Source: a virus
Lineage: Duplodnaviria; Heunggongvirae; Uroviricota; Caudoviricetes
IMG/VR virus record: IMGVR_UViG_2802429052_000001
Coordinates: 27,845-91,844 of that record
Length of the DNA stretch: 64,000 bases
Strand: one strand, 5' to 3'
In this document: positions 4,381 through 39,833 of the stretch, piece by piece
How positions within the stretch are numbered: the first letter of the stretch is position 1
How the letters are laid out: every line of letters begins with the position of its first letter
Notes under the pieces: model-generated
What the model was told of the DNA's origin: nothing
Seen by the model: only the letters and a program-made list of their open reading frames with translations
Databases searched by the model: none
Translations under genes and position numbers: made by a program

Positions 4381-4402
4381 CACACCACAGGAGAACTCAC
4401 CC

Positions 4403-4708: not shown

Positions 4709-4709
4709 C

Positions 4710-5864: not shown

Positions 5865-5878
5865 AAGGGAAAACCATT

Positions 5879-8323: not shown

Positions 8324-8498
8324 GCCTGGCATAGCTGGACTAGCCCGGACGGTCGAGCACGTGAAGTAGTCCACCCAAAACCCCAGCACAACGGCAGTGG
8401 TGGACGAAATAGCCGAAAACATACCGGGATCTATACCGGGCTACTCATGACCTGCACTGTTTCCGGTTTTGATCACGAAAATGAGAGGACAACCAACC

Positions 8499-8711
8499 AT
8501 GCCCAACGACAACGTACGCCTGGCAATCCACGCTGCGAGTCTGCTCGTCTTCATTATCGCGGTGGCAGTGCTCGTCGCTCTCGATAAGCTCCAGAGTGGC
8601 GATGGCCTGACGTGGATCGTCACCGGCGCCGGTCTCATCACAGCCGGGCTCTCCACAACCAAGATGATTCAGGACCGGCGCGGCAACGGGCCGGACGGGT
8701 CGGCTCAGTGA
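8499..8711 (+). CDS. Holin-like membrane protein (2 TM)
   Basis: Two hydrophobic helices, charged C-terminus, GAGGA RBS, position after lysins. Confidence 0.5.
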   Translation: MPNDNVRLAIHAASLLVFIIAVAVLVALDKLQSGDGLTWIVTGAGLITAGLSTTKMIQDRRGNGPDGSAQ

Positions 8712-9070
8712 TCCTGCCATCAATCCCGATCACCGAATGGCCCCCACTGCCTCCGCTGGCCCGCGACGGATGGGAACTGGCCACCTGGATCGTCATCGCC
8801 CTGGTCGTGCTCGTCCTCGGCCTGTACCGCAAGGATCTTCGCGCCGTGCTCCACCAGGTCAAGAACAGCCACAAGACCAACCTCCGCGACGACGTGGACG
8901 GAGTTGGTGACCGACTCGACGACGTGCTCGACCGGCTCGAAGAGTTCGGCCGCGACCTGCGCGGAATGCGCTCCGATATCGGCGGCCTACGCGGCGAGTT
9001 GAGAGAAGAACGCAAGGACCGCTTAGCATTCGAGCACCAGGTAACAGAGAAGCTGCGCGACTCAAACTAG
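8708..9070 (+). CDS. Membrane-anchored coiled-coil protein (holin/lysis regulator candidate)
   Basis: GTGA overlap with upstream holin; TM helix then charged coiled coil with DIGGLRGE motif shared with B 18991..19353. Confidence 0.5.
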   Translation: MILPSIPITEWPPLPPLARDGWELATWIVIALVVLVLGLYRKDLRAVLHQVKNSHKTNLRDDVDGVGDRLDDVLDRLEEFGRDLRGMRSDIGGLRGELREERKDRLAFEHQVTEKLRDSN

Positions 9071-9082
9071 CCGACCGGAAAC

Positions 9083-9117
9083 GGCCCTGCTCAAATCCAC
9101 TGAGCAGGGGCGTTTTT
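9083..9117. terminator. Rho-independent terminator between convergent lysis operon and toxin cassette
   Basis: GC hairpin CCCTGCTCA..TGAGCAGGG followed by TTTTT. Confidence 0.55.
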
Positions 9118-9130
9118 CGCCGTCTATCGG

Positions 9131-9877
9131 CTAGTGAGATACCTCATCGAGACCATTTTCCCGCAGCGTGGCCGTCATCGCCTCGACAACCCTTGCGGCC
9201 GGCCAATCATCCGGCGCTGAAATCAACGTGCCCCCGGCCAGCTCAGTCGCGGTTAGCCGGTCAACGAGATGGCTGACCGTACCAACCTCGGCGCTGATCC
9301 ACATTCGGTAGCCGACGCCGATCTTCCAGTTGCCACGACGAGCGAGACGACGCACTGCGAGATCCGCGAATTCGGTGGTTGCGGGCTCCCACGTCTCGAC
9401 CACCGCAGCTGTTACGGCGTCGGCATCCACAGACCGCAGCGCGTTCTCATGCGCTTCACGGAGCTCGACTGCCAGACGGCGGCGAGGTAGCCGCTGTCCG
9501 ACTGCTGGGTGACCGGCTGCGATACGCACCAGAGGGGAAACACGGGGGCCTGCGCCCGAAATGGTGAAGGAGTAACCCTCACCGGGTAGCGCATCACCGA
9601 TATCTTCCGAGGCCCCTACGAATTCACGAACGGGATGTTTGCGAACTATGTTGACCAGTTCGTCGGGGGAACCTTCCCACAGTTCCCAATCGTTGTCGGC
9701 CGCAATCTGCCAGCTCGATACGTCGAACGCTGATTGCAACGAACGGAGCAGGCTGTCGGTGCGTGCGGCGATCCATTCGGGAGATTCGCCAGCTGCTACC
9801 CGGAGAGCGAGCAGCGACGGCCGCGATGCGCCCCAGACTGGGTTCTGCACCTCGTTCACAGCTGCCACCTCACTCAT
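9131..9877 (-). CDS. Putative immunity protein for toxin 9874..11892
   Basis: Start overlaps toxin stop (ATGA); position and coupling typical of immunity genes; no recognisable domain. Confidence 0.5.
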   Translation of the reverse strand: MSEVAAVNEVQNPVWGASRPSLLALRVAAGESPEWIAARTDSLLRSLQSAFDVSSWQIAADNDWELWEGSPDELVNIVRKHPVREFVGASEDIGDALPGEGYSFTISGAGPRVSPLVRIAAGHPAVGQRLPRRRLAVELREAHENALRSVDADAVTAAVVETWEPATTEFADLAVRRLARRGNWKIGVGYRMWISAEVGTVSHLVDRLTATELAGGTLISAPDDWPAARVVEAMTATLRENGLDEVSH

Positions 9878-11892
9878 GGTTTCGGAGTGTAGATGACCTC
9901 TACACCGTAGACACCGTTTGAATCGAACAGGTCACGAAGGGCCGCGGCACCATAGGGATCGGATACGTGCCACTCAAGTCTCGCACCTGGTGGGAGCGCG
10001 CCGAGCTGTCGGTCAACTTGTTCGAGCGCCGACTCTGCCCGCCCCGTCCAGTACGCGTTGTCCGGCGCGAACGCCAAGCCCCGAAAGCCGTCCTTTGCTT
10101 CGAGAAAGACCTCTTGCGGGCCGCGATAGGTGTGTCCGTCGAAGGAAACTGGGGCTCCCGTATCTAGGTCATGTTGCACCCATTCGGGCAGTGCTCCGCT
10201 GGGTGTTCGTTCAATTCCGCCGATTTGTTCCTGGTACGGCATCCAGTCTTTGTCGAAGTTGTGGTTGATGTGCTTCCAGCCTGGCTCGGTGTCGCCCTTG
10301 TTCCATGTGGCCTCGGGGGTGCCGGGCGGCCATCCGCCCGGGTGGTGCGGGTCCCCGGAGGTGTAATGCTGGCCGCCGCCAGGATCGAACTCATATGGTG
10401 CGGGCGGCTGATACGACGGCGGGGTGTGGTCACCACCTGCTGAGGGGGCCTGATGGTCCATCACGGGCCAGGAATGCGCGCCGGCGCCGGGCTGCTCGAC
10501 GTGCGCGGACGTCGGTTCGTGGGTGCTGGATAGATCGTGGGTGATGGCGCGTCCTTCGGTGCCGGTGAGGTCGCCGAGCAGTCCGCGCGCACCGGCTGCC
10601 GCTTCGCCTCCGATTGCCCCGCCTCCGAGGGCTTCGGTGCCGTGGATGATGTTTTTGCCGATGAACTCGCCGGGGTGGTTGTAGAACTCTTTGGCTTGTT
10701 CGATGCCCATCTTGGGCGCGGCCAGTGGATCGCTCGTCAGCTCGTGAACCTGTTTGACTGCGCCCAGGCCTACGTCTTTCCATGCTTCGGCGACACCGGG
10801 AGCGCCCGGACCTGCTTGCCCGGTAAGAACTTTCGCTTGTTCGATCTGGCCGTCAATGGTTTTGGTGGCCTCATCGTTAGCGCGGCCCACGATGTCGTTG
10901 AACTGATCACCGGGTGAGTTATGCAGCGGCACCTGACCAGGGGTGCGCATCGGATCGGCGTCGGGGGCAAAACGCGGTGCCTGCGCCCGCTGGACCGCCT
11001 CATTGACCCGCTGCTCGATCTGGTTGGCGGGCACACCCTCGTGTTGCAGGCGCTCGCGGGTCGCCTGGGCGAACGCGGGAACATCGCGATCGGCCAAGGT
11101 GGGGGCGAGCTTGGCCGGTTTGGTCTTGTCGATATCCCCCACACCGGGCATGGCCCCGATGCTGCCGAGCTGATGCCCATCCACCGACGCGGTTTTCGGG
11201 TACAGCTCTTTGTAATTGATCGTCTCCGGGCCGCTGGCGGCTGCGGCTGGGGTGGTGCTGGCCGGGTCGGTGGCCTTGGGGTACTGCTGTTTGTAGTCGA
11301 TCGTCTCGGCTGCTGGTTGGCCTGGCGTGGCCTCGCGCAGGATCTTGCGCGCATCGACTAGGGCCGCTTTGGGGTTGATGCGGGAGAGCATTTTCTCGCG
11401 CGCGGCATCGGTCTGTGTCTTGAGTTCTTGGGTGGCCTTCTCCCACTTGGCGACATACTCGCGTAGTTCGCGCTCAGCGTCAGCCACGATCTGTTTGTTG
11501 CGGGCCACCGACTTTTCGCTTTCACCCTCAGCCGGGTGATAGGTCATCGTGAAGTCTTGACCGACCGTGACGCCCTCGCGCAACGCGTTGGTGACGATGT
11601 TCTGCCCGCTGGTCAACGGTGGCAACACCTCGAACTCGATGGTGGCGCTGACGAGCTTGACAGCATCTTCGGTGGTGTCGTCGGCGTTATCGGTGCCCTT
11701 GCAGTCATCGGCGGCGGCTTCCTGGGCGGCGCCCGCGAATTGCCCAGACCAGTAGGTTCCGTTCGGGGTGGTGGCCCACCGTTTGTAGTCGTCGTAGGTG
11801 GCTTTCAACGCCGCTGTGCGCGGCCGCAAACTGTCCACCACCGCCATATAGTCGTTGGCCTTCTTGGCCATGAACTCATCGAGGATTGTCAC
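9874..11892 (-). CDS. Polymorphic toxin (672 aa) with WXG100-like N-terminal domain (YWSGQ), Pro-rich linker and C-terminal toxin domain of unknown fold
   Basis: GTG start with GAGG RBS; N-terminal helical domain containing W-x-G; long low-complexity linker; distinct C-terminal about 120 aa. Confidence 0.65.
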   Translation of the reverse strand: MTILDEFMAKKANDYMAVVDSLRPRTAALKATYDDYKRWATTPNGTYWSGQFAGAAQEAAADDCKGTDNADDTTEDAVKLVSATIEFEVLPPLTSGQNIVTNALREGVTVGQDFTMTYHPAEGESEKSVARNKQIVADAERELREYVAKWEKATQELKTQTDAAREKMLSRINPKAALVDARKILREATPGQPAAETIDYKQQYPKATDPASTTPAAAASGPETINYKELYPKTASVDGHQLGSIGAMPGVGDIDKTKPAKLAPTLADRDVPAFAQATRERLQHEGVPANQIEQRVNEAVQRAQAPRFAPDADPMRTPGQVPLHNSPGDQFNDIVGRANDEATKTIDGQIEQAKVLTGQAGPGAPGVAEAWKDVGLGAVKQVHELTSDPLAAPKMGIEQAKEFYNHPGEFIGKNIIHGTEALGGGAIGGEAAAGARGLLGDLTGTEGRAITHDLSSTHEPTSAHVEQPGAGAHSWPVMDHQAPSAGGDHTPPSYQPPAPYEFDPGGGQHYTSGDPHHPGGWPPGTPEATWNKGDTEPGWKHINHNFDKDWMPYQEQIGGIERTPSGALPEWVQHDLDTGAPVSFDGHTYRGPQEVFLEAKDGFRGLAFAPDNAYWTGRAESALEQVDRQLGALPPGARLEWHVSDPYGAAALRDLFDSNGVYGVEVIYTPKP

Positions 11893-11902
11893 GGCTGGAG
11901 CC

Positions 11903-12214
11903 TCATGCGCGTTGCGGCGGCTGATAGATGCTCGGCAACTTGTAGTACCCGGCGTGCAGCTGCTCGGTGGTCAAGAAGCCTCTGTGTGCCTCGTCGTATA
12001 CATCGCTGATCGCCTCCAGGCGAGCGGCGGCGATGCGCTCCACATCCGAGATCGCTTTCGAGAAAGCCTCAAGCGCCGCCAAACCCGGATCCGCCCCAGG
12101 GGTCACATGGTCTGCCGGGATACGCCCCCGGATCTGCCTGGCACTCTCGCGCAGGTGCGGACCAATCTTGGCCATCGCGTCAAGGTCGGCCTGCAACACC
12201 TTGTCATCGCTCAC
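11903..12214 (-). CDS. Small alpha-helical accessory protein (WXG100/Lap-like helper candidate)
   Basis: GTG start with AAGGGGG RBS; about 100 aa helical protein immediately upstream of toxin. Confidence 0.4.
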   Translation of the reverse strand: MSDDKVLQADLDAMAKIGPHLRESARQIRGRIPADHVTPGADPGLAALEAFSKAISDVERIAAARLEAISDVYDEAHRGFLTTEQLHAGYYKLPSIYQPPQRA

Positions 12215-12330
12215 ACCTGCCCCCTTGCCCGATCTGGTTACGGGGCAGACTACAGGCACAGTAGGAAACCGGTCGTGCAATGCCGATCACCGGGCGGCAA
12301 TCTGTCAACAGCAGCGGGGTTGCCCGGGGC

Positions 12331-12573
12331 TCAGCGCCCGCGGGTCGCCAGCTCAGGGCACTCGCTCATGACCTCTTTGTCCACGACAGCCCTGGCAGCA
12401 TCGTAACTGCTGTAGAGGTGTTGATCTTCTGAGAACGTTAGGGCCACGTCGGTCGGCCCCATGCCGGGGTACTTGCGCAGCGTGTCACACACAATCCCAG
12501 TTAGACGAGGACTGGCGTGCGCAATTGGAGCGCACCCGAGAGTGATCACCGCGGCCAGCACGAGCGCCTTCAT
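12331..12573 (-). CDS. Small secreted protein (signal peptide, Cys pairs)
   Basis: N-terminal signal peptide MKALVLAAVITLGCAPIAHA; ATGA coupled to upstream gene. Confidence 0.45.
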   Translation of the reverse strand: MKALVLAAVITLGCAPIAHASPRLTGIVCDTLRKYPGMGPTDVALTFSEDQHLYSSYDAARAVVDKEVMSECPELATRGR

Positions 12574-12920
12574 TCGATGTGCCCCGGCTCGCCAGGAGGG
12601 ATAGTGTCAGCGGTGACGGTGTAGGTCTCGATCCCGCTCCGCTCGGCGGGGATCACGTCATGCGCCCACTGGGGGCAGCCACCGTAGTAGTAGACGCCGC
12701 CGCAACTGCTGTGGACATATTGCGGGTGCCAGTATCGGCGCGCTCGCTCCCATGATCCGTCCGGGTTGATCGGTCCGTCGCACATCTCGAGAATCTGTGG
12801 ATTGAGGCCGAGTAGCGGCACGCGCGCACAGCCGGGTGGTGGTGGGTCAGCATTGGCCGACGGGCTGAACATCAACGCCGCCGCGCAAATTGCGACCACA
12901 ACCCCCGTGATCTTGTTCAT
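12570..12920 (-). CDS. Secreted Cys-rich protein (116 aa)
   Basis: Signal peptide ending ANADPPPPGC; multiple Cys. Confidence 0.45.
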   Translation of the reverse strand: MNKITGVVVAICAAALMFSPSANADPPPPGCARVPLLGLNPQILEMCDGPINPDGSWERARRYWHPQYVHSSCGGVYYYGGCPQWAHDVIPAERSGIETYTVTADTIPPGEPGHIE

Positions 12921-12943
12921 GCGCGGATCGTACTGCGATTTAC

Positions 12944-13180
12944 TCAGCTTCCGGCCAGGAATGCCACCAGTCGATCTACCTTGTCGATCCCCGCGAAATG
13001 CCGGGGCGCCCTGCGACTATCCTGACCATCGGCCCACAAGATCACGCCGGTGTGCGCGTACATGACGGAAACCCACGACGCGGTGCCGGGGCGGCGGTAG
13101 ACGAGCTCGCCACTGTCGCCTCCCACGGCTACCCAGCCATGCACGCGTGCGGCCCGATCGACGGTCTGCTGTCCAGTCAT
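12944..13180 (-). CDS. Hypothetical protein next to integrase (possible recombination directionality factor)
   Basis: ATGA coupling with integrase stop; small size. Confidence 0.3.
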   Translation of the reverse strand: MTGQQTVDRAARVHGWVAVGGDSGELVYRRPGTASWVSVMYAHTGVILWADGQDSRRAPRHFAGIDKVDRLVAFLAGS

Positions 13181-14091
13181 GTCGATTGCCCTTCTGTTGC
13201 GATCGTCGAACGCCGCCGGGTGGCCTTCTTAATTCGGGGAGCGGCACACAGCCGGGAAGCGAGCGCATCGACGCCAGCAGCCCCGCGTCGCGCGGAATAT
13301 CCGAGGTAAACCATTGTGGTAGAGAGGCTTTGATGGCCGAGGGCTTCCTGTATGTAGCGGATATCCACGCCGGCCTCCAGCAGTGCCGTGGCGAATCTAT
13401 GGCGCAGTGTGTGCAGCGTGTAGGGGAGTTTCAGGTTCGCCAGAAACTCCGAAGACGTAACCGAGACATAGTTCGGAGTGACGGGCCCACCCTCGGGGCG
13501 CCGGAACATTGCGCCCGGCTGGCTCATCTGGTTACTCAGGCGCTCAAGCACAATCGGAGGTACCCGCACAATCCGCTGCTTCCCGCCCTTTCCGTGCACA
13601 GTCAGGAACGCGCCGCCGTCGCCGTCCGGCCGAAAATCGCTGCGCTCCATTGCCGCGATCTCTCCGGCGCGCAAACCGCAGTAGCCGGCCAGGAGTAGCC
13701 ACGCATGCATGTCCGACCCGATAGGCGCGGCCATCAGTGCGAGGTCGAGGTGATCGTCGGGGATCGGCCGGGGCATCCGGCGCTTGATCTTCGGCTGGAC
13801 CAGACGTGCGGATGGGTCCGCGGCGATGAGGTTGGCCCCGTGGGCCCAGCGGTAGAACGCGCAGACGTGGCTAGTGTAGGTCTGAACGCTTGAGGCGCAC
13901 ACCCGTAGGGAGCGCTGCCATGCCTCCAGCTGTTCGGGTGTGGCGTCCATCAATGCGGTGTCGCCCAGCCAGCGGTCGAGACGATCGAGTTGGCCGAGAC
14001 GGTGCTCGATGGTTTTCGGAGTCATGTTGCGGAGCTTTAGATACGCTGTGAATGCACTGAGAGCCGCCCCGGAGCTGTGAAGGTTTTCCAT
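13177..14091 (-). CDS. int: Tyrosine integrase (prophage A)
   Basis: SAM-like N-terminal domain, catalytic HTLRHRFAT (R..HxxR) and terminal Tyr in TTMVYL. Confidence 0.85.
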   Translation of the reverse strand: MENLHSSGAALSAFTAYLKLRNMTPKTIEHRLGQLDRLDRWLGDTALMDATPEQLEAWQRSLRVCASSVQTYTSHVCAFYRWAHGANLIAADPSARLVQPKIKRRMPRPIPDDHLDLALMAAPIGSDMHAWLLLAGYCGLRAGEIAAMERSDFRPDGDGGAFLTVHGKGGKQRIVRVPPIVLERLSNQMSQPGAMFRRPEGGPVTPNYVSVTSSEFLANLKLPYTLHTLRHRFATALLEAGVDIRYIQEALGHQSLSTTMVYLGYSARRGAAGVDALASRLCAAPRIKKATRRRSTIATEGQST

Positions 14092-14099
14092 GCCGAATA

Positions 14100-14330
14100 T
14101 GAATAGCGGCTAGGTGATCTTGATCTGACGGTTGTTGCAGGTCAGATGCTTTTTAGAGCGTAACCCGTGACCCTTTGCCGACCGGCGCAAGCCTGACTTA
14201 CGCGGTTCATACTCACGAGTATGAACCGTATAAGTCCGCGTTCCGGCGCGCCAGCTCAGGTCACGGTTTCCGCTCGGGGAAGCAACTGACCTGCAACAAG
14301 TCCACCCGTTCGGTTTCCTAGCAAAAGGAC
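14100..14330. repeat. Quasi-palindromic junction between divergent integrases (putative att/P-arm region); perfect 10-bp inverted repeat GTTCATACTC-ac-GAGTATGAAC at 14205..14226
   Basis: Arms about 80% identical as inverted copies (TTGTTGCAGGTCAG, CCGTGACC, CCGGCGC blocks). Confidence 0.55.
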
Positions 14331-14341
14331 GGGCTGTACTT

Positions 14342-15232
14342 ATGTCACCTGTGAATAATGACACCGTCGTCTCAGAGTTTGCTCGTTATCTGAAGCTGAA
14401 GAACTTCACAGCTAAAACGATCGAGCACCGCTTGGGGCAGATTGCTAGATTAGCTAGATGGCTTGGGGAAACATCTTTGCTGGAGGCCACCCCAGAGCAG
14501 CTTGAGGCCTGGCAAGGTTCGTTGCGGGTGTGCCCGTCTAGCATCCAGACCTACACGTCGCATGTTTGCACCTTCTATCAGTGGGCCTACCGCTGTGGTC
14601 GCACTAGCGAATACGTCGCAAAAGACTTGGTGCAACCGAAGATTCAGCGCCGCATGGCCCGGCCCATCCCCGAGGACCACTTGCGGATCGCGCTGACCGG
14701 CGCGCCTGTCGGGACTGACATCCATGCATGGCTGCTATTGGCCGGATACTGCGGTCTGCGCGCTGGGGAGATCGCGCAGATGTCACGCAACGACTTTCGC
14801 CCCGACGAAGGCGGCGGTGCCTTCCTGACCGTGCACGGCAAGGGAGGGAAGCAACGCATCGTCCGAGTTGCCCCCGAGGTCATGCAACGTCTGGCAATCC
14901 AGCTGAGCCGACCCGGCACCATGTTCTGCCGTCCCCGCGGCGGGCCAGTAACACCCAACTACGTCTCGGTCGTGGGTGCGGAATTCCTAACCAATCTCGG
15001 GCTCCCGTACACGCTGCACACCCTGCGACACAGGTTCGCGACCGTGCTCGCCGACGAAGGCGCGGACCTTCGCGATATCCAGGAATTGATGGGGCACGAG
15101 AGCCTGGCCACCACCATGCGGTATCTCGCCTACTCAACCCGACGTGGAGCGGCGTCCGTCGACTCGCTCGCGTCGCACCTGTGCCCCTCGCGGTCGTCGG
15201 CATCAAGAATGGAACAGCGCAGTCACAAGTAG
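14342..15232 (+). CDS. int: Tyrosine integrase (prophage B), about 70% identical to integrase A
   Basis: Same SAM-like N-terminus and HTLRHRFAT...Y catalytic motifs. Confidence 0.85.
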   Translation: MSPVNNDTVVSEFARYLKLKNFTAKTIEHRLGQIARLARWLGETSLLEATPEQLEAWQGSLRVCPSSIQTYTSHVCTFYQWAYRCGRTSEYVAKDLVQPKIQRRMARPIPEDHLRIALTGAPVGTDIHAWLLLAGYCGLRAGEIAQMSRNDFRPDEGGGAFLTVHGKGGKQRIVRVAPEVMQRLAIQLSRPGTMFCRPRGGPVTPNYVSVVGAEFLTNLGLPYTLHTLRHRFATVLADEGADLRDIQELMGHESLATTMRYLAYSTRRGAASVDSLASHLCPSRSSASRMEQRSHK

Positions 15233-15313
15233 GTGTCACATCTAGGAGGTCGGCCAGCGGACACGAGGGGATGCCCATATGGTCTCCGAATGCCCGCTCG
15301 CCGGTCCCCCTGG

Positions 15314-15595
15314 ATGAACGAACGCGCCCAGTTGCTCGTGCGCTATCTCGCCGAGCAGCACGCCCTGAACATGACCGAGGCCATGGCGCGAGAGCGTATT
15401 TCGGCGAAAGTCGACCTCACGGCCGAGCTGATGGGCATCAGCCGGCAGTCGGCCAAGGCCTACGTCGATGAGGACTACGTGCGCCGGATGGCCGACAGCT
15501 TCGCGGCAGCGGTCCGAGACCTACAAGCTCGGTCACCGCGCCGTGGACTGAGGGCGGTGCCCGACCAGTCTGGCATGGCGACGGAATGGCAATAA
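15314..15595 (+). CDS. Hypothetical HTH-like protein downstream of integrase (possible excisionase/regulator)
   Basis: ORF immediately after int; ISRQSAKAYV helix-turn-helix-like segment; start uncertain (15233, 15290 or 15314). Confidence 0.3.
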   Translation: MNERAQLLVRYLAEQHALNMTEAMARERISAKVDLTAELMGISRQSAKAYVDEDYVRRMADSFAAAVRDLQARSPRRGLRAVPDQSGMATEWQ

Positions 15596-15686
15596 CCCTG
15601 CGAACGCCGTCGAAACGTGCTGTTCGGATGGGTATCGCTTCGCACTCCTATTGCGGTGGCAAACTGGGCGGCGATACCATCCGGCA

Positions 15687-15998
15687 ATGAGTGGAGGGGT
15701 CCTCGGGGTTTCGCCAGAAGAGTTGCAGCGGGTTTCGCGATTGGTCACCGCGACCGCAGGCGGTTTGGCGACTGAGCTGGACGCCCTCGACGCCGAGGTG
15801 TCGCGATTTGTCGGCTCCGGTTGGTCTGGTGGGTCGGCGAGCGCGTTCACCGCGCGGTGGTTCCAGTGGTACGAGGGCGCCAAGCTGGTGCACCAGGGCC
15901 TTGCGCAGATGGGCAGCTTGTTGGCGAGCACCGGGGAGGCGTTCGTGGGCCAGGATGCGGCCACCGCCGCCAACGTCAACGCCGCTGGCGGAATGTAG
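15687..15998 (+). CDS. WXG100 family protein (Esx-like), first of pair
   Basis: About 100 aa helical hairpin with WSGGS W-x-G motif. Confidence 0.65.
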   Translation: MSGGVLGVSPEELQRVSRLVTATAGGLATELDALDAEVSRFVGSGWSGGSASAFTARWFQWYEGAKLVHQGLAQMGSLLASTGEAFVGQDAATAANVNAAGGM

Positions 15999-16007
15999 GG
16001 GGAGGGG

Positions 16008-16298
16008 ATGTCAGGTGAATTCGGCGTTGTGCCCGACGAGCTCATGCGGATCATCGAGCGCATGGCAGAGGTTGAGCAGCGAGCCGAGGCGTCGATAGCG
16101 GCCATGGACACCGAGGTGCACAACCTGCACGCCACCTTCACAGGTGAAGCTGCCACGGCCCACACGCAGGCGCACGAGAAGTGGGCCAAGGGCGCCGAGC
16201 AGATGCGCGAAGCACTCAGGGGCCTACGTGGCGCGAGCCACGCGGCGCACGGCAATTACACGGGCGCCGCTGCCAAGAACATGCAGAACTGGGCATAG
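16008..16298 (+). CDS. WXG100 family protein (Esx-like), second of pair
   Basis: 96 aa, HEKWAKGAEQ central motif, tandem with upstream WXG100 gene. Confidence 0.6.
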   Translation: MSGEFGVVPDELMRIIERMAEVEQRAEASIAAMDTEVHNLHATFTGEAATAHTQAHEKWAKGAEQMREALRGLRGASHAAHGNYTGAAAKNMQNWA

Positions 16299-16302
16299 CG
16301 CG

Positions 16303-17952
16303 ATGGCACCCCCGATTCATGTCGACCCGGTTGCCCTCGATGGCGCCGGTAGAACGGTCTCCAGCTCGGTGGGCGGGTGGGGCTCTGCGCTGTCGGCATT
16401 GCAGTCGGCGCTGTCGAGTTCGGCCGGTATGGGTGGGGATGACCCCGCCGGGATCGTGTTCGCGCGATCGTATGACTCGTCAGCCAAGGAACTCCTTGAG
16501 GCGATGGTGGACGTGTCCAACGGTGCGGGGCGGGCCGCTGACGGCATCCGGGCCTCGGCGACCAACTATTCGCGTGCCGAGGTGGCGTCCAACATCGACG
16601 GCAAGGGTGGCGACCCACTGCCCGCCGCCTCACCCACTCCCTCGGTGAAGGCCGGGACCCCGCCGTCTGCGGTGGGTAGCGATGTTGGCGACCCACCCGG
16701 TTGGTTTCTGGTGGAGCCGTTCATCGGAATGATTTGGCCAAACGGCGATTCGGCGAAGCTGCGCGCCGCTGGCACCGCGTGGACCGCTGCCGGTGCGGCA
16801 TTCACCGCTCAGCAGGCCGGGCTGGCGGGGGCGCAGGCAACCGCGCAGGCCCAGCAGATACCCGAAGGCCCCAAGATCGATAGCGCGTTCAAGACGATTG
16901 ACGGTGCTGTCGGCGAGGTCGGCGGCATGTGCAGCACCATGGGCGCCAAGCTCAACGACTACGCGGCCAAGATCGATACGGCGCATGCGTCGATACTGGA
17001 TCTGTTGGCCCGCTTGGTAAATCCGCTGACCGGTGCCAAACAGGTCGTGGACTGGATTACCGGCGAAGACGACGACGAAATAAAGAAAATCGCCACCGAC
17101 ATCCGCAACATCGTCAACCAGTTCAAGTCGGAAGTGCAGTCGCTCGCGCTGCTGCTGGCACCGATCATCCAGGGCGCATCGATGGTCATCGACACCCTAA
17201 AGTCGTTGGTACAGATGCAAGTTGAGCTTTTCGGCAACGAGATATACAACACCGTGGCCCCGCTAGTGAACGCCACTGCATCCTTTGGGCAGGCCATGAT
17301 CGACAACCCCGGCCAGACAATCCAGATGGCAGCTGGAGTCGGCATGATGGCGGTCGGCTACGACATGATGGCTGCGGCGGGCGTCGGTGAGGTCTTTACC
17401 GGTGGGGCTGCCACGCCGGTCGCTGCGCCCGTCGCTGTTGCCGGTGCTGGCCTGCTCGCTGGTGGCGCGGTCGTCGCCATACCGCCAGCCCTCGACCTCT
17501 CGAAAGAGGCTGCGGTCAACGGTGTGACGGTGATGGAGGCCCGGACTGGACGACCCGGCGAGGGCATCAACCGTGGCGACGACCGCGATTCCATCGGCAC
17601 GTTCACAGGCCGAGGCGGCACGGCGCGGGGATACGGCCGCCAACCAGAGGCGGAGGGTGTCGCCAAGTACAAAGACGAGACCGGGCGTTGGGTGAGCACC
17701 GAGACGAAAAAGTCGAGAGTGGACGGCGTTGACCATGGCCGCTACTACGACGGGCATGCCCGTAAGCCGGACGGTACGTACGAGGGTATCGAGGTGAAGT
17801 CGGGGGGTGCATCGAGGGACGGCCAGCAGAGGGCATTCGATGATGCTGTGTCGTATGAGAATCCGGCCTATGTGACGATCACCAATGAACAAGGCGTCGT
17901 GGAAACAGTGAAGATCACCTCGGTGAGAGTTGTGGAGGTTCCTGCAGAATGA
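16303..17952 (+). CDS. Polymorphic toxin (about 549 aa): helical N-terminal secretion domain, Ala/Gly-rich middle, C-terminal toxin domain (nuclease-like, unassigned)
   Basis: ATG right after WXG100 stop; long ORF; C-terminal about 130 aa module (DHGRYYDGHARKPDGTYEGIEVKSGG) distinct from toxin A. Confidence 0.65.
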   Translation: MAPPIHVDPVALDGAGRTVSSSVGGWGSALSALQSALSSSAGMGGDDPAGIVFARSYDSSAKELLEAMVDVSNGAGRAADGIRASATNYSRAEVASNIDGKGGDPLPAASPTPSVKAGTPPSAVGSDVGDPPGWFLVEPFIGMIWPNGDSAKLRAAGTAWTAAGAAFTAQQAGLAGAQATAQAQQIPEGPKIDSAFKTIDGAVGEVGGMCSTMGAKLNDYAAKIDTAHASILDLLARLVNPLTGAKQVVDWITGEDDDEIKKIATDIRNIVNQFKSEVQSLALLLAPIIQGASMVIDTLKSLVQMQVELFGNEIYNTVAPLVNATASFGQAMIDNPGQTIQMAAGVGMMAVGYDMMAAAGVGEVFTGGAATPVAAPVAVAGAGLLAGGAVVAIPPALDLSKEAAVNGVTVMEARTGRPGEGINRGDDRDSIGTFTGRGGTARGYGRQPEAEGVAKYKDETGRWVSTETKKSRVDGVDHGRYYDGHARKPDGTYEGIEVKSGGASRDGQQRAFDDAVSYENPAYVTITNEQGVVETVKITSVRVVEVPAE

Positions 17953-18419
17953 GGATTGACAAGCCAACCCACATCGCAGAATCAAACCTGGCCAAAATGC
18001 GTACCAGTGACTTTACGGAAGAAATACCAGGCCAGCTCGCAGCGGGGATAAATCGTTTAGGCACAAAGGGATACACGTACTACTCAATCTACCCGGTTGC
18101 GCCAGAGGTCCGATACGATGAGTTCCCATACTCGCCTGAGCGCATCCAAGCCTGTGGTAGGGATGGCAGGCTCACGGTCGAGATTAAACGGCTTGAGGCT
18201 GATGGTGTGCGGCGCCATTACACCATCGGAAGACCTTCTGCAGCAAACGAATCCGAGACCGAAGTGGTCTACAACGGCGATAGCGCTTACCCGGTACGCC
18301 CATCAGAGGTATTGACACCAACCGAGGCCATCAGACTATTCCTGGGCTACTACGACACAGGCGACGTTGCGCCAGGCTGGCACCTGCGCGAGCAACCCGA
18401 ATTCGCCGACGCCGGGTAG
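17949..18419 (+). CDS. Putative immunity protein for toxin 16303..17952
   Basis: ATGA overlap with toxin stop; 156 aa cytoplasmic protein. Confidence 0.5.
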   Translation: MRIDKPTHIAESNLAKMRTSDFTEEIPGQLAAGINRLGTKGYTYYSIYPVAPEVRYDEFPYSPERIQACGRDGRLTVEIKRLEADGVRRHYTIGRPSAANESETEVVYNGDSAYPVRPSEVLTPTEAIRLFLGYYDTGDVAPGWHLREQPEFADAG

Positions 18420-18493
18420 GGTGCATGTCCACCGCTGTGTGGGCACTCCTGTTACCACTTCTGACCTGTGCGTGATCTTGTAATCTGCCGTCC

Positions 18494-18922
18494 ATGGCGA
18501 GAGAGATGGGCACCCCGGCGAAAGCGTTGTGGGTGTGTCTGGGGGTATTTGTCGGGCTGCTGGCGTTCATGGCGGCGTGCGCAATAGGGCTGTCGGGCCA
18601 ATCCGGAAACGTTGGTGTGAGCGTTGAAGTGAGGCAAAAGTACGCGATCGAGACATGCCAGTCTGCTCTCATGAAGCGTATGCGTGACCCTGAGAGTGCG
18701 AAGTTCGCCGATGAGGTGGCCCGTGAAGGTGTGGCGCATGGAGGTGGGCGTGATCCCGAGTTGGACTACTCGCCCGACCGCGGTGATATCTACTTTACGG
18801 TGACGGGCAATGTCAACGCCAAGAACGCGTTTGGTGGTTACACGGGGATGCGTCCCTACACCTGCGATGCGGTGGTGGACAGAAACGGCACAACGCAAAG
18901 CCGGGCCCGCGTGCTGGATTAG
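18494..18922 (+). CDS. Lipoprotein/secreted protein (142 aa)
   Basis: N-terminal TM/signal with lipobox-like MAACA; last gene before terminator. Confidence 0.45.
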   Translation: MAREMGTPAKALWVCLGVFVGLLAFMAACAIGLSGQSGNVGVSVEVRQKYAIETCQSALMKRMRDPESAKFADEVAREGVAHGGGRDPELDYSPDRGDIYFTVTGNVNAKNAFGGYTGMRPYTCDAVVDRNGTTQSRARVLD

Positions 18923-18937
18923 TGCACTAGAAACACT

Positions 18938-18976
18938 AATAGCGCCCCTCACCGGGTCGGGGTGAGGGGCGCTATT
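18938..18976. terminator. Strong bidirectional terminator between toxin cassette (+) and lysis operon (-)
   Basis: 16-bp perfect GC-rich stem AATAGCGCCCCTCACC..GGTGAGGGGCGCTATT followed by TTTCGTT. Confidence 0.65.
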
Positions 18977-18990
18977 TCGTTGGCCTGCAA

Positions 18991-19353
18991 TTAGTGTGGC
19001 CAGCGCTCGATCAGCTCTCGGATGTGCTGGTCTGCCCTCCCGCGCTCGGTGCGCTCGGTTCGCATTTCCTCGCGCAGGCCTCCGATGTCGCGGGCCTGCT
19101 GGCCCTGTTGTTCCTCGATTCGCTTGATCCCCTTGAGAATTTCGTCGAGATCAACGCGCATGTTGGTCTCATGGTCGTTCTCGGTCTGCTCACGGATGGC
19201 TCCGGTATCGGCGGCGATAGCGCCCAGCTTCTTACGGTGCGCGAACGTGGCCGTGGCCCAGGCCACCGCGACCGATCCGCAGATCGGGGCGAGTAGCGCC
19301 ATCGTGAGTGCCGCGAACTGCTTTGGGGTATCGATGCTGCTGACATCCACCAT
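18991..19353 (-). CDS. Membrane-anchored coiled-coil protein (homolog of A 8708..9070)
   Basis: TM helix plus coiled coil; DIGGLREE motif; follows holin. Confidence 0.5.
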   Translation of the reverse strand: MVDVSSIDTPKQFAALTMALLAPICGSVAVAWATATFAHRKKLGAIAADTGAIREQTENDHETNMRVDLDEILKGIKRIEEQQGQQARDIGGLREEMRTERTERGRADQHIRELIERWPH

Positions 19354-19367
19354 TTCGGTCAGCAGGC

Positions 19368-19664
19368 TCACCGGCCGCTGCCCGCCACGAGCTTGAACAG
19401 GCTGGACGGTACGACCGCCTTGGTGGCCGAGGCGGTACCGGATCGGCCCAGCTTGATCGATGCCGCAGAGAAGATGAGCGATACCGCCAGCGTTCCGGCG
19501 CCGACATTGATACCGCTCTGCCAATCGATCTCGGTCAGGGCTGCGTTCACCGCGGCGTCGGCCAGGTTGGCGCCGACGATGAAGCCACCCGCGAACGTCT
19601 TGATAGCGCGCTCGGCAGCGTCAATGGCGGCGTCTTTGAGCCAGGGCGGGATAGTGATGTGCAT
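19368..19664 (-). CDS. Holin-like membrane protein
   Basis: GAGAGGA RBS 6 nt before ATG; amphipathic/TM segments; unrelated in sequence to the holin-like gene of A. Confidence 0.5.
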   Translation of the reverse strand: MHITIPPWLKDAAIDAAERAIKTFAGGFIVGANLADAAVNAALTEIDWQSGINVGAGTLAVSLIFSAASIKLGRSGTASATKAVVPSSLFKLVAGSGR

Positions 19665-19954
19665 GACGGTCCTCTCGGCGGTTGGGTTGTGGATAACTGC
19701 GTTTGGGCAGTTCAGGGGGAGTTTTTTCGATGGCGCCATGGATAGGGAGCGCTACGGTGTGGGGAGTCCCTGCGCGCTCTCCTCGCGCGGGGCCGATCGG
19801 GCGTAGCATCTACGTTTGTTCGGCGAAGGTGCTTTGAGCCTGAATTGACAGGCTTGAGACGGCACCCCGGCCTAGACGGTGGAACGAAGCTCGGCGCGCA
19901 GCGGTTGCAAACGCAGCGCATAGAGCGGAAGGCGTGCGAACGCTGCAGACACCC

Positions 19955-19986
19955 AGTCGGCTGGGTTCAATTCCCAGGCGCCGAAC
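19955..19986 (+). other. tRNA-like fragment (T-arm CTGGG-TTCAATT-CCCAG plus acceptor-like GCGCCGA) in 330-bp noncoding gap
   Basis: Canonical G53/TTCAATT/C61 T-loop signature; full cloverleaf could not be folded by eye. Confidence 0.3.
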
Positions 19987-19995
19987 TTTTCGGAA

Positions 19996-21180
19996 CTAAG
20001 CCGCCACGGCGGGGGTGCGGCTGGCCCAGTCGCGGACGTGCTGGATGGCGAGCCCGAGATAGGTTTGGCCGGGCCAGACCTCGCGGTACTCGTATTGAAT
20101 GTGTGCGGCGGTCGGTGGGCTGGTGGTGACGAAACGCAGCGCGATCAGGGCGGCCTGTGCCGCGGCCGCGGGCCCGGTGAGCTTGTTGATATCGCCCCAG
20201 CCGAGTAGTCCCTGTAGACCGCCGAGGACTATGGGTAGGCCGAGCGCGGCGATACCGTTGGGGCCGCCAGTGAGCGCGCCGAATATGGCGGGCAGCTCGA
20301 TGCCTAATGCCTTGGCGGCGATTTCGGGGATTTTGGGCAGGATGGCGCCTGCGGCCCCGAGTGGGTCGGTGATCTGGAATGCGGTCACCATGTCGAAACA
20401 GTCGTCCATGATGTCCCCGACAACACCGAGGGGGATGTTGCCGTACATGTCGCCGGGGTCGGTGAGCCAGCAGTGCCGGTAGTCGGTGATGTCGCCGTAG
20501 CGCCGTGACGAGATGCCTTGCCCAGCAAGGACCGGGCCGCCGTAGTAGCTGCCACCGTGGGGTCGGGTGGGGTCACCGATGCTGAATGAACACAGGTAGT
20601 TGTTCGGGTAGTGCTCCAGCAGCCACACGCGGAATCTGGCCGCCGCGACGGCGCCGGCCGAGTATCCACCGATGACGACCTTGGTGTTGGGGTTGGCGCG
20701 GTAGCGCTCCAGGAAGATGCGCTGTGCGTCGGCGACCGCGATCTCGACGGCCTTGGCCATTGAGATGTCACCGGGGCTGCCCGCGGCGCCGACCGGCAGA
20801 CCGCCCATGGTCGCGGCGAATTCGGGGTGCACTTCCTCGACGAGGTTGGCCACCGCTTGCATGACGCGAGATACGTAGTCCTGGCCGATGATGCCTCCGG
20901 TGCCCCGGAACATCAGCCCGAGGTGGCGATTGGCGGGCGGGGCCGGGGGCGTGATGCCCAGCGCGCGTAGGTCATCGTCGGACACCTGCCCGGTGGGGAT
21001 CTGGCCGGTGCGGCGCTGATACTCGGCGGCCCACAGGGCAGCACGCGGCCCGAACTCGTCGGTGTCTTGCGGAAGCGGCCCCAACAGCCGGGTGTACAGC
21101 GGGCCAAACCAGTCGTTCATCACGGCCCGCCACCGACGGACCGTTTCATTGCGGTCTCCGATGCGGATCATTTGGACCAC
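19996..21180 (-). CDS. lysB: Lysin B, mycolylarabinogalactan esterase with PG-binding N-terminus
   Basis: GYSAG serine esterase motif; PG-binding-like N-terminus; overlaps lysin A stop. Confidence 0.7.
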   Translation of the reverse strand: MVQMIRIGDRNETVRRWRAVMNDWFGPLYTRLLGPLPQDTDEFGPRAALWAAEYQRRTGQIPTGQVSDDDLRALGITPPAPPANRHLGLMFRGTGGIIGQDYVSRVMQAVANLVEEVHPEFAATMGGLPVGAAGSPGDISMAKAVEIAVADAQRIFLERYRANPNTKVVIGGYSAGAVAAARFRVWLLEHYPNNYLCSFSIGDPTRPHGGSYYGGPVLAGQGISSRRYGDITDYRHCWLTDPGDMYGNIPLGVVGDIMDDCFDMVTAFQITDPLGAAGAILPKIPEIAAKALGIELPAIFGALTGGPNGIAALGLPIVLGGLQGLLGWGDINKLTGPAAAAQAALIALRFVTTSPPTAAHIQYEYREVWPGQTYLGLAIQHVRDWASRTPAVAA

Positions 21181-21836: not shown

Positions 21837-21976
21837 CGGGTGTACTTCCTTTCGATGCGTGGGTCGATCTCTTGGGCGTAGGACGAGAGCTGGTCGGATG
21901 CCCACCAGCCGAGCCGGAATGAGAGGGCGGCAAGTGCGGCGTAGAAGGCCGCGTATTTGAGCAGCTGGCGGGCCAT
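21833..21976 (-). CDS. Small membrane protein (48 aa), homolog of A 6259..6405, coupled to lysin A
   Basis: MARQLLKYAAFYAALAALSFRLGWWASDQLSSYAQEIDPRIERKYTR; about 75% identical to the A copy. Confidence 0.5.
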   Translation of the reverse strand: MARQLLKYAAFYAALAALSFRLGWWASDQLSSYAQEIDPRIERKYTR

Positions 21977-21978
21977 GA

Positions 21979-22341: not shown

Positions 22342-22360
22342 GCGGGGGCCTTTCTGTTGG

Positions 22361-22816: not shown

Positions 22817-22838
22817 GTTTGGGTGGTCCCTCCTGCGG

Positions 22839-39830: not shown

Positions 39831-39833
39831 GAT

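What the first reader, a model, noticed from the sequence alone, without database searches (positions are those of the whole stretch)
14092..14341. Two related prophages fused head-to-head across a 250-bp quasi-palindrome
Divergent integrases are separated by a region whose two halves are inverted copies of each other at about 80% identity (blocks TTGTTGCAGGTCAG, CCGTGACC, CCGGCGC). At the centre is a perfect 10-bp inverted repeat, GTTCATACTC-ac-GAGTATGAAC, at 14205..14226.

The flanking phage genomes are mirror images:
- A has late genes on +, and cargo and integrase on -;
- B has integrase and cargo on +, and late genes on -.

Tandem prophages at one attB are normally direct repeats. An inverted fusion suggests recombination between inverted att sites, an inversion, or two integrations into a palindromic target. 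No host tRNA is evident in the junction.
Basis: seen in the sequence. Interest (0 to 1): 0.7.

Follow-up and report, generated by a model that had tools for sequence, protein, structure and literature searches.

The report
Two prophages head-to-head in one palindromic attB
Two different Mycobacterium abscessus prophages sit integrase-to-integrase in the same chromosomal site because that site is a palindrome whose only asymmetry is its two central bases, and one phage carries those two bases flipped, so it inserts backwards.

Summary
Window 14092-14341 is the middle junction of a double lysogen in Mycobacterium abscessus.

Prophage B (14205-63999) is 100% identical to prophiGD52-1, cluster MabC. 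Prophage A (1-~14226, partial) is a MabN-like phage with its own repressor/integrase cassette.

Both use integration-dependent immunity, where attP lies inside the repressor gene. The two halves of the quasi-palindrome are therefore homologous 3' repressor remnants plus int leaders, facing each other.

The host site, attB-13, is a conserved 11-2-11 palindrome, AGTTCTTACTC-AC-GAGTAAGAACT. B-type phages carry AC in the repressor-to-integrase direction; phage A carries GT.

From that flip I predicted the middle junction, A's far junction and the single-A junction. All three were found base for base. A's far end abuts the normal left host flank on the same contig, so there is no inversion and no chimera.

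The junction recurs in at least 7 assemblies. A second, independent head-to-head pair exists (L067). An identical integrase occupies attB-14 in both orientations.

The arrangement is ordinary tyrosine-recombinase logic applied to a symmetric site. I found no description of it in the papers searched. It plausibly allows two integration-dependent-immunity phages to share one attB.

The parts
1..14209 (-). Prophage A, right-hand 14.2 kb (partial; the rest lies left of the window). It is a MabN-like temperate phage inserted backwards relative to B. Contents: tail and lysis genes on +, and a polymorphic-toxin cassette plus integrase on -.
   Evidence: Positions 1-6405 are 95.7% identical to MabN prophages prophi62-3 and prophi108-1. 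The window is identical to GCA_900136975.1 contig FSJV01000001.1 wherever I hold both. In that contig A runs ~42 kb, ending in its truncated repressor next to the left host flank.
13177..14091 (-). IntA, a 304-aa tyrosine integrase of phage A.
   Evidence: Pfam PF00589, E 4.5e-20. Motifs GLRAGE, HTLRH and GHQSLSTTMVY are present. Identity to other integrases: 86% to MabO prophi91-3, 85% to phiT45-1, 80% to MabN, 69% to IntB.
14110..14211 (-). 3' remnant of phage A's repressor gene (YEPRKSGLRRSAKGHGLRSKKHLTCNNRQIKIT*), cut off from the gene body by integration.
   Evidence: It is identical to the C-terminus of the 132-aa viral-form RepA seen where attP_A is intact (L004).
14203..14228 (.). Perfect 12-2-12 palindrome CGGTTCATACTC-AC-GAGTATGAACCG. 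It is the hybrid recombination site formed by the two integrase-proximal half-sites.
   Evidence: It equals the junction predicted from rc(attP_A) recombined with B's integrase-side junction.
14210..14221 (.). TACTCACGAGTA, the 12 bp shared by every junction type. Strand exchange must fall inside it. The central AC (14215-14216) is its only asymmetric part.
   Evidence: Junction table over all loci. The flanking positions 14209 (A vs T) and 14222 (T vs A) distinguish phage P' half-sites from host half-sites.
14220..14321 (+). 3' remnant of phage B's repressor gene (YEPYKSAFRRASSGHGFRSGKQLTCNKSTRSVS*).
   Evidence: Annotated as such in MW584208 (misc_feature). Joined to 63710-63997 it gives a 129-aa in-frame viral-form repressor.
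14342..15232 (+). IntB, a 296-aa tyrosine integrase of prophage B.
   Evidence: Pfam PF00589, E 2.8e-21. The exact protein occurs in 730 collection blocks. Nine of the ten places shown are single lysogens with the left host flank next to it; the tenth (L014) is the head-to-head pair.
14205..63999 (-). Prophage B, complete (49,795 bp). It is prophiGD52-1, cluster MabC, integrated at attB-13.
   Evidence: 100.0% identity to MW584208 over the part queried. Cluster and attB assignment are from PMC8092301.
63710..64000 (+). Prophage-form (truncated, 96-aa) repressor of B. Its TAA stop is completed by the first host base, at window position 64000.
   Evidence: In six loci it is followed by the right host flank (276-aa SDR gene).
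63988..63999 (.). Right-hand copy of the 12-bp core TACTCACGAGTA, at B's repressor-side junction with the host.

Best explanation
The 250-bp region is the middle junction of two different prophages that occupy the same chromosomal attachment site, attB-13 of Mycobacterium abscessus, in opposite orientations.

[quoted passage not shown] Their attP core lies inside the repressor gene, and the integrase gene lies immediately downstream. Integration therefore leaves a short 3' repressor remnant and the int leader at the integrase end of each prophage. Here two such homologous ends face each other, and that is the quasi-palindrome.

**Why the orientations differ.** The host site is itself a palindrome, AGTTCTTACTC-AC-GAGTAAGAACT. 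Its only asymmetric part is the central AC. A tyrosine recombinase needs matching overlap sequences in the two partners, so the central dinucleotide of attP sets the direction of insertion.
- MabC, MabN and phiT45-1 phages carry AC, read from repressor to integrase. They insert with the integrase next to the left host flank.
- Phage A carries GT. It inserts the other way round.

**How the double lysogen formed.** The second phage to arrive recombined with the hybrid site at the integrase end of the resident prophage. The order of arrival is unknown.

**Consequence for immunity.** The palindrome reads GAG-TAA outward in both directions. Each repressor is therefore truncated to its prophage form, whichever way the phage sits.

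**Shown versus inferred.**
- Shown: the layout, all junction sequences, the palindromic attB, and the flipped attP centre.
- Inferred: that the centre is the causal determinant of orientation, the order of events, and which integrase acted.
For: **1. Identity of the phages and the site.**
- B is 100% identical to prophiGD52-1, and its record annotates attP within the immunity repressor.
- The literature places it in cluster MabC at attB-13, a non-tRNA site. It notes that the repressor stop codon is completed by the first host base (PMC8092301).

**2. The empty site.** In 8 other Mycobacteroides/Mycobacterium genomes the empty attB-13 reads GAGTTCTTACTC-AC-GAGTAAGAACTG (7 of the 8; L023 has GAGTAAGAATCG, which shortens its perfect arms to 9 bp).

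**3. The flipped centre.**
- Intact attP_A reads ...ATTCTTACTC-GT-GAGTATGAACCGCG in the rep-to-int direction (5 loci: L004, L007, L055, L057, L059).
- B, prophi62-3 and phiT45-1 read ...GTTCTTACTC-AC-GAGTATGAA....

**4. Predictions from the flip, all met exactly.**
- The middle junction CGCGGTTCATACTCACGAGTATGAACCGTAT equals window 14200-14230.
- A's far junction, host-left|GAGTTCTTACTCACGAGTAAGAATGCTACC, was found in 10 loci. One of them (L037) is on the same contig as the window sequence.
- The single-A junction, IntA next to the right host flank, was found in 7 loci. L053 and L043 lie on one contig, ~42 kb apart.

**5. Orientation tracks the centre, not integrase relatedness.**
- MabN Int is 80% identical to IntA and carries AC. 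It sits next to the left flank in 7 loci.
- phiT45-1 Int is 85% identical to IntA and carries AC. It sits next to the left flank in 5 loci.

**6. Generality.**
- An identical Int protein (P0045) occupies attB-14 in both orientations, with centre CA in L070 and TG in L072.
- I predicted the empty attB-14 sequence by joining their flanks, and it was found exactly in L077.

**7. Recurrence.**
- The same junction occurs in at least 7 assemblies from different projects.
- A second head-to-head pair with different phages exists (L067: MabN Int against IntB, with an 18-2-18 palindrome).

**8. Repressor forms.** RepA is 99 aa in the prophage and 132 aa in the viral form. RepB is 96 aa against 129 aa.
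Against: - **No experiment.** The cleavage positions and the length of the overlap are unknown. I know only that exchange falls within the 12 shared bases.
- **Partial circularity.** At any junction the central dinucleotide is the host's by construction. Independent support for an attP-encoded centre therefore comes only from free attP forms: A with GT, and phiT45-1 with AC.
- **Identical modules at different centres.** L067 carries an integrase and P' arm identical to canonical AC-type MabN, yet it is inverted. The same Int and P' arm also occur at centres AC (attB-13) and TG (attB-14). Either variant attP centres arise readily, or the enzyme sometimes tolerates a central mismatch.
- **Short reads.** All supporting assemblies I could inspect appear to be short-read assemblies. 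None was checked with long reads.
Confidence: 0.82

Rival explanations
1. Mismatch-tolerant backwards integration. The integrase ignores, or tolerates, a mismatch at the central two bases. A phage can then enter the symmetric site either way, and the GT centre of phage A is a consequence of an earlier backwards insertion rather than the cause of its orientation.
For: - L067 has an integrase protein and P' arm identical to canonical AC-type MabN phages, but it sits inverted.
- The identical Int and P' arm (phiT45-1 type) occur at centre AC (attB-13) and centre TG (attB-14).
- Some tyrosine integrases (CTnDOT, NBU1) tolerate overlap mismatches, as cited in PMC10865867.
Against: - For phage A the free attP form carries GT (5 loci).
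- All 24 A-type host or middle junctions have the one orientation expected from GT.
- All 21 AC-type Int-side junctions at naive attB-13 have the other orientation.
- No mixed orientation is seen within a type.
- This rival best explains how a flipped lineage first arises, not how A behaves now.
Confidence: 0.1
2. Chromosomal inversion. The two prophages integrated at separate sites, and recombination between inverted att sites (or between homologous phage segments) inverted the DNA between them, bringing the two integrase ends together.
For: Related integrases use several similar cores in the genome (attB-12, -13, -14), so inverted partner sites do exist.
Against: - On one contig the order is left flank of attB-13 | A | B | right flank of attB-13 (L037, L003 and L033 all lie in FSJV01000001.1).
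- The same two flanks are adjacent at the empty site in 8 genomes.
- An inversion would leave a foreign flank at one outer end.
Confidence: 0.02
3. Assembly artefact. A palindromic misjoin of two prophage contigs.
For: - Several assemblies break contigs at or near this core (L010 in 14 samples; L007, L055, L059, L060).
- One scaffold (L004) has an N gap nearby.
Against: - The identical junction occurs in at least 7 assemblies and unitig sets from different sequencing projects.
- The perfect palindrome is 26 bp, and the flanking arms differ at about one base in five, so single reads span it unambiguously.
- Every half of every junction is accounted for to the base by exchange inside a 12-bp core.
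- The contig breaks are explained by a competing attP_A path, from excised or tandem phage DNA.
Confidence: 0.02
4. Functional palindrome. The 250-bp inverted repeat is itself a selected element, such as a replication origin, a hairpin telomere remnant or a regulatory cruciform.
For: The predicted single-strand fold is strong (z = -9.6).
Against: - Each half exists on its own, upstream of int, in single lysogens and in virion genomes.
- Each half is a reading frame continuous with the repressor gene.
- The symmetry appears only when two such ends are juxtaposed.
- No Rfam, promoter or terminator signal was found.
Confidence: 0.03

Closest known systems
Tandem prophages prophiT36-2a/2b at attB-2 of M. 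abscessus T36 (Amarh et al. 2023, PMC9934374)
   Same: - Same species.
- Two different prophages (MabN-like plus another cluster) at one attB.
- Both use integration-dependent immunity.
- Formation is explained by a second integrase-mediated event into a hybrid att site of the resident prophage.
   Different: - T36 is a direct (head-to-tail) tandem in a tRNA-Thr gene. According to its authors it is viable only because the two repressors are read in different frames.
- Here the site is a non-tRNA palindrome, the prophages are inverted, the repressors share one frame, and both abut host DNA.
Integration-dependent immunity of mycobacteriophages BPs, Brujita and Charlie (Broussard et al. 2013, as cited in PMC8092301), and of clusters MabB, C, H, K, N and O
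   Same: - attP lies inside the repressor ORF.
- The tyrosine integrase gene lies downstream.
- Integration shortens the repressor by ~33 residues.
- The stop codon is formed at the junction.
   Different: - The BPs-type sites are asymmetric tRNA cores with one orientation.
- Here the core is symmetric and both orientations are used.
- The repressors lack an ssrA-like -AA tag.
Central-dinucleotide control of orientation in serine integrases (Bxb1, phiC31); from my own knowledge of Ghosh, Kim and Hatfull 2003
   Same: Near-symmetric att sites in which a non-palindromic central 2 bp is the only carrier of polarity. Flipping it flips the insertion.
   Different: - Those enzymes are serine recombinases that make 2-bp staggered double-strand breaks.
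- These are tyrosine recombinases, which exchange strands through a Holliday junction across a 6-8 bp overlap.
- Here the rest of the overlap happens to be palindromic.
Spacer asymmetry in Cre/loxP and FLP/FRT; from my own knowledge of Hoess 1986 and Senecoff and Cox 1986
   Same: A simple tyrosine recombinase without an arm-binding domain acts on two inverted half-sites. Directionality resides only in the asymmetric spacer.
   Different: - Those are plasmid or phage maintenance systems studied with engineered spacers.
- This is a natural phage integration system in which lineages with opposite spacers coexist.

Membership tests
Integration-dependent immunity system | The attP common core lies inside the repressor open reading frame. 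| tested here: met
   - Intact attP_A (L004 9584-9982) has the core at codons 95-99 of the 132-aa RepA.
- B's two repressor parts join in frame across the core.
- The GenBank record says the same.
Integration-dependent immunity system | Integration yields a C-terminally truncated repressor at one prophage end and leaves the 3' remnant at the other. | tested here: met
   - RepA is 99 aa next to the left host flank (10 loci), with its remnant at 14110-14211.
- RepB is 96 aa at 63710-64000, with its remnant at 14220-14321.
Integration-dependent immunity system | A tyrosine integrase is encoded directly downstream of the repressor in the viral genome. | tested here: met
   - The RepA stop lies 18 bp before the IntA start in L004.
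- phiT45-1 has the same layout.
Integration-dependent immunity system | The viral-form repressor is unstable or inactive and the truncated form confers immunity (degradation signal in the C-terminal extension). | not testable with these tools
   - There is no ssrA-like -AA tag: the extensions end ...IKIT and ...RSVS.
- PMC8092301 notes that MabC, MabN and MabO repressors lack such tags.
- Activity needs experiments.
Tyrosine recombinase (Phage_integrase, PF00589) | The catalytic domain, with the conserved Arg, His-x-x-Arg and Tyr motifs. | tested here: met
   - Pfam E 4.5e-20 and 2.8e-21.
- GLRAGE, HTLRH and GH.SL.TTM.Y are present in both integrases.
Tyrosine recombinase (Phage_integrase, PF00589) | The recombination site has two inverted half-sites around a short overlap, and exchange occurs inside sequence shared by both partners. 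| tested here: met
   - All eight junction types share TACTCACGAGTA and differ immediately outside it.
- The cleavage points themselves were not determined.
Cluster MabC prophage at attB-13 (prophage B) | Nucleotide identity to a named MabC member, with host flanks of attB-13. | tested here: met
   - 100.0% identity to prophiGD52-1.
- The flanks are those of the empty site.
Cluster MabN prophage (prophage A) | Genome-wide nucleotide similarity to MabN members, including the integration and immunity cassette. | tested here: inconclusive
   - The tail region 1-6405 is 95.7% identical to prophi62-3.
- Region 12265-14205 has no megablast match in the phage collection.
- IntA is only 80% identical to MabN Int.
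- The left ~28 kb of A was not compared.
Tandem (polylysogenic) prophages at one attB, T36 type | Two prophages bounded by the two flanks of one attB, joined by a phage-phage hybrid att site. | tested here: met
   The contig order is left flank | A | hybrid site | B | right flank.
Tandem (polylysogenic) prophages at one attB, T36 type | The two prophages are in direct (head-to-tail) orientation. | tested here: not met
   The integrases are divergent, and the repressors sit at the two outer ends reading outward.

The most novel reading that the evidence does not exclude
This integrase family reads a symmetric core (CTTACTC-NN-GAGTAAG) in which the central two bases alone programme both which chromosomal site is used (AC/GT for attB-13, CA/TG for attB-14) and in which direction. 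That would make it a tyrosine-recombinase counterpart of the serine-integrase central-dinucleotide rule.

On this reading, flipping the centre is an evolved escape from an exclusion rule. Two integration-dependent-immunity phages with the same reading frame cannot form a direct tandem, because one repressor would be re-fused to a destabilising tail (shown in silico; argued by Amarh 2023). Inverted, both repressors end at a TAA supplied by the palindrome, so the two phages can share the site.
Probability: 0.4. Interest if true: 0.65.

Novelty: new variant of a known kind. Interest (0 to 1): 0.5.

Why it matters
**Natural evidence for a textbook rule.** It gives a natural, sequence-level demonstration that orientation of a tyrosine-integrase insertion can rest on two central bases of an otherwise palindromic site. 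It also shows that phage lineages exploit both settings.

**Co-residence of two phages.** It explains how two heteroimmune phages whose immunity depends on integration can share one attB. That affects prophage load, toxin-immunity cargo and phage susceptibility in a pathogen for which phage therapy is in use.

**Practical uses.**
- The cores are ready-made parts for integration vectors with a choosable site and direction in M. abscessus.
- Prophage-finding pipelines should expect inverted pairs. Such pairs break short-read contigs at the core.

**Effect on host genes.** The orientation changes which phage promoter faces each of the two divergent host genes at attB-13. One of these genes appears to start at the GTG in the centre of the palindrome.

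Tried and rejected
- **tRNA attB.** No tRNA lies in the junction. The only ARAGORN call, tRNA-Ala at 25652-25738, is not supported by Rfam.
- **Structured RNA, promoter or terminator in the junction.** None was found.
- **L004 as a host junction inside A's tail genes.** I first read it that way. It is a scaffold gap of Ns, so I dropped it.
- **Chromosomal inversion and assembly chimera.** Both are rejected from the flanks and from recurrence.
- **Empty attB-14 or MabO junction in viral contigs.** The search gave no hit.
- **Direct look-up of a host protein from a locus.** I reached the same answer through a homologue search.
- **M. abscessus species representative.** It did not match my 20-mer for attB-13. 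The hits came from sister species, so the M. abscessus empty site is inferred from the two flanks of single lysogens.
- **Rep-to-rep (tail-to-tail) pairs.** I looked among the places returned for the truncated repressors and found none. This is not an exhaustive survey.
- **Literature.** Searches for an inverted pair at attB-13, or for palindromic attB sites used in either orientation, found no description in the library held.

Full report
**What is at the coordinates**

- Two divergent genes, 13177-14091 (-) and 14342-15232 (+), encode tyrosine integrases. Both hit PF00589 (E 4.5e-20 and 2.8e-21) and they are 69% identical.
- Between them lies GTTCATACTC-ac-GAGTATGAAC at 14205-14226. The perfect arms extend to 12 bp, at 14203-14228.
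- The flanks are inverted copies at 83% (41 nt) and 78% (32 nt).
- Over the full 250 bp the identity is 63% with gaps, because the outer ~40 bp on each side are unrelated. The alignment score is still 28, against -14.5 +/- 5.1 in shuffles.
- The single-strand DNA fold of 14125-14306 has z = -9.6.

**Where the window comes from**

- The right-hand phage (B, 14205-63999) is 100.0% identical to Mycobacterium phage prophiGD52-1 (MW584208) from M. abscessus.
- Dedrick et al. 2021 (PMC8092301) place that prophage in cluster MabC at attB-13. This is a non-tRNA site at the extreme 5' end of MAB_3947, with a listed core TACTCGTGAGTAAGAAGT.
- The left-hand phage (A) has tail genes 95.7% identical to MabN prophages. 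Its integrase region has no close match in the phage collection.
- The nearest integrases to IntA are MabO prophi91-3 (86%), phiT45-1 (85%), MabN (80%) and MabC (69%).
- The window is base-for-base identical to contig FSJV01000001.1 of GCA_900136975.1 over the parts I hold (window 3177-24091 and 57710-64000).

**Why the two halves resemble each other**

The GenBank record of B marks an "immunity repressor" split between the two prophage ends, because attP lies inside the repressor gene. This is integration-dependent immunity.
- On the + strand, 14220-14321 continues the reading frame of B's repressor (63710-63997). Joined, they give a 129-aa viral form.
- On the - strand, 14211 down to 14110 is the equivalent remnant of A's repressor. 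It is identical to the C-terminus of the 132-aa RepA seen wherever attP_A is intact (L004).
Across six family members, TTACTC..AGTATG, GTCAC and CTG.CCTGCAACAA are invariant or nearly so.

The quasi-palindrome is therefore two homologous integrase-proximal attP arms placed face to face. It is not an element in its own right.

**The host site is a palindrome**

A scan of one genome per species found the empty site in eight Mycobacteroides/Mycobacterium genomes.
- It reads ...GAGTTCTTACTC-AC-GAGTAAGAACTG... (7 of the 8; L023 has GAGTAAGAATCG, giving 9-bp perfect arms).
- This is an 11-2-11 perfect inverted repeat whose only asymmetry is the central AC.
- It lies between two divergent short-chain dehydrogenase genes.

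**The key difference between the phages**

- Read from repressor to integrase, B, canonical MabN (prophi62-3) and phiT45-1 have ...TTCTTACTC-AC-GAGTATGAA....
- Phage A's intact attP has ...TTCTTACTC-GT-GAGTATGAA... (L004, L007, L055, L057, L059).

The centre of A is thus the reverse complement of the centre of B. Tyrosine recombinases require matching overlap sequences in the two partners (established knowledge). A should therefore insert into the same attB in the opposite direction.

**Predictions and tests**

From the flip I wrote down three junctions before looking for them.
1. *Middle junction.* Predicted rc(P'_A)-core-P'_B = CGCGGTTCATACTCACGAGTATGAACCGTAT. This is window 14200-14230 exactly.
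2. *A's far end.* Predicted left host flank|GAGTTCTTACTCACGAGTAAGAATGCTACC, giving a RepA that ends ...SILTRE-TAA.
   - A homologue search returned the 99-aa form.
   - Its encoding contigs show that junction in 10 loci, each followed by the 295-aa SDR and glyoxalase genes of the left flank.
   - L037 lies on the same contig as the window sequence.
3. *Single A-type lysogens.* These should have IntA next to the right flank.
   - Seven loci do.
   - L053 and L043 lie ~42 kb apart on one contig.

The contig order is left flank | A (~42 kb, inverted) | B (49.8 kb) | right flank. This excludes a chromosomal inversion.

A table of every TACTCACGAGTA occurrence in all loci resolves into exactly the expected types:
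- the empty site;
- the two B ends;
- the two A ends;
- attP_A and attP of phiT45-1;
- the middle junction.

The junction types differ immediately outside the shared 12 bp. Exchange therefore occurs within 14210-14221.

**Does orientation follow the centre or the enzyme?**

- MabN Int and phiT45-1 Int are closer to IntA than IntB is. Both have AC centres and sit next to the left flank, like MabC (7 and 5 loci).
- The identical phiT45-1-type Int protein is also found at a second site:
  - with centre CA next to an SDR/MaoC flank (L070);
  - with centre TG next to a thiolase flank (L072).
- Joining those two flanks predicted an empty site ...GACAAAGAACTTACTCCAGAGTAAGAATGCTCGGTAATCC... That sequence was then found exactly, between the divergent SDR and thiolase genes of L077.
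- This site is attB-14 (MabO core). It is occupied in both orientations by phages with one and the same integrase.

**Recurrence and artefact check**

- The window's junction is identical in at least 7 assemblies and unitig sets from different projects.
- A second, independent head-to-head pair exists in GCA_900133425.1 (L067).
  - It joins an integrase identical to IntB with the MabN integrase.
  - It has different cargo and an 18-2-18 perfect palindrome.
- Contigs that stop at the core (L010 in 14 samples, and L060) or shortly after following the attP_A path (L007, L055, L059) are explained by a competing attP_A path. That path comes from excised or tandem phage DNA, not from a misjoin.

**How it most likely works**

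- *Shown.* Both phages entered by site-specific exchange inside the 12-bp core. The second to arrive used the hybrid site at the resident's integrase end.
- *Inferred.* The AC/GT centre is the cause of the direction. The order of arrival and the integrase responsible are unknown.
- *Follows from the sequences.*
  - The palindrome reads GAG-TAA outward in both directions, so either orientation truncates the repressor.
  - The phage P' half-site has TAT at that position, so the viral form reads through.
  - A direct tandem of two same-frame phages would re-fuse one repressor to the other's tail. I verified this in silico for the RepN body plus the B remnant.
  - Amarh et al. 2023 argue that such fusions block direct tandems unless the frames differ.
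  - The inverted layout avoids this. Whether that is a selected benefit is hypothesis.

**Caveats**

- No cleavage mapping or assay exists.
- Junction centres are the host's by construction. Only free attP forms are independent evidence for a phage-encoded centre.
- L067, and the AC/TG pair with an identical Int and P' arm, show one of two things: centres change readily, or mismatches are sometimes tolerated.

**Comparison with what is known**

- The closest case is the direct tandem prophiT36-2a/2b at a tRNA attB (PMC9934374).
- The orientation logic matches loxP/FRT spacer asymmetry and, formally, the serine-integrase central dinucleotide. Both comparisons rest on my own knowledge.
- I found no description of inverted co-occupancy of attB-13, of its palindromic nature, or of flipped-centre lineages in the papers searched.

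I rate this a new variant of a known kind, of moderate interest.

Noticed in passing
L023-L030 around the match; L011 and L037 left flank: The centre of the attB-13 palindrome, read on the minus strand, is a GTG that opens a conserved reading frame (VSKNS.SKR..TA.ARA.MQP...) leading into the 295-aa SDR gene. The species differ synonymously there, so the gene probably starts inside the attachment site. A TACAGT -10-like hexamer lies just upstream on the other flank. Prophage orientation therefore decides whether a repressor gene or an integrase leader sits upstream of this host gene.
   Followed up: partly
L067 (GCA_900133425.1 FSDI01000019.1) 1362-3400: A second, independent head-to-head prophage pair: a 296-aa integrase identical to IntB faces the canonical MabN integrase. 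The junction is an 18-2-18 perfect palindrome, CTTATACGGTTCATACTC-AC-GAGTATGAACCGTATAAG. Here the MabN module is inverted relative to seven single MabN lysogens.
   Followed up: partly
L070 (CP034191.1), L072, L077: One identical integrase protein (P0045, phiT45-1 type) occupies attB-14 in both orientations (centre CA or TG), and attB-13 as well (centre AC). The empty attB-14 in L077 matches the sequence predicted from the two flanks.
   Followed up: yes
L004, L007, L055, L057, L059, L010, L060: Many assemblies carry the intact attP form of phage A (full-length 132-aa repressor directly upstream of IntA), or break contigs exactly at the core. This suggests excised or replicating phage DNA in the sequenced cultures, or A-A tandems. 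L004 is a scaffold with an N gap that falsely places host DNA next to A's tail genes.
   Followed up: partly
window 9131-11892 (-) and 16144-18419 (+); L011, L013, L015: Both prophages carry a polymorphic-toxin/immunity cassette next to the integrase, mirrored across the junction. In A it is a 672-aa Tox-REase-5 toxin plus a 248-aa partner; in B it is a WXG100-type toxin plus a 156-aa partner. The 672-aa/248-aa gene pair (same product lengths and Pfam family; sequences not compared) also sits next to IntB in other MabC prophages. This fits the cassette exchange described by Amarh et al. 2023.
   Followed up: no
window 25652-25738 (-): ARAGORN calls an 87-nt tRNA-Ala(GGC) inside a long tail-gene ORF of prophage B. 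Rfam finds no tRNA at its gathering threshold, and the published record lists 0 tRNAs, so this is probably a false positive.
   Followed up: partly
alignment A1 (window 14207-14347 and five relatives): The block CTGACCTGCAACAA (Leu-Thr-Cys-Asn-Asn in the repressor tail) and the block GTCAC show almost no synonymous variation across six phages whose neighbouring codons differ freely. This hints at a DNA-level role, such as integrase or accessory-protein binding or int expression, in addition to coding.
   Followed up: no
window 12570-12920 (-): A 116-aa CDGP-domain protein (PF24238, E 1.7e-14) lies two genes from IntA. It recurs next to A-type and MabN integrases in many loci. Its function is unknown.
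   Followed up: no
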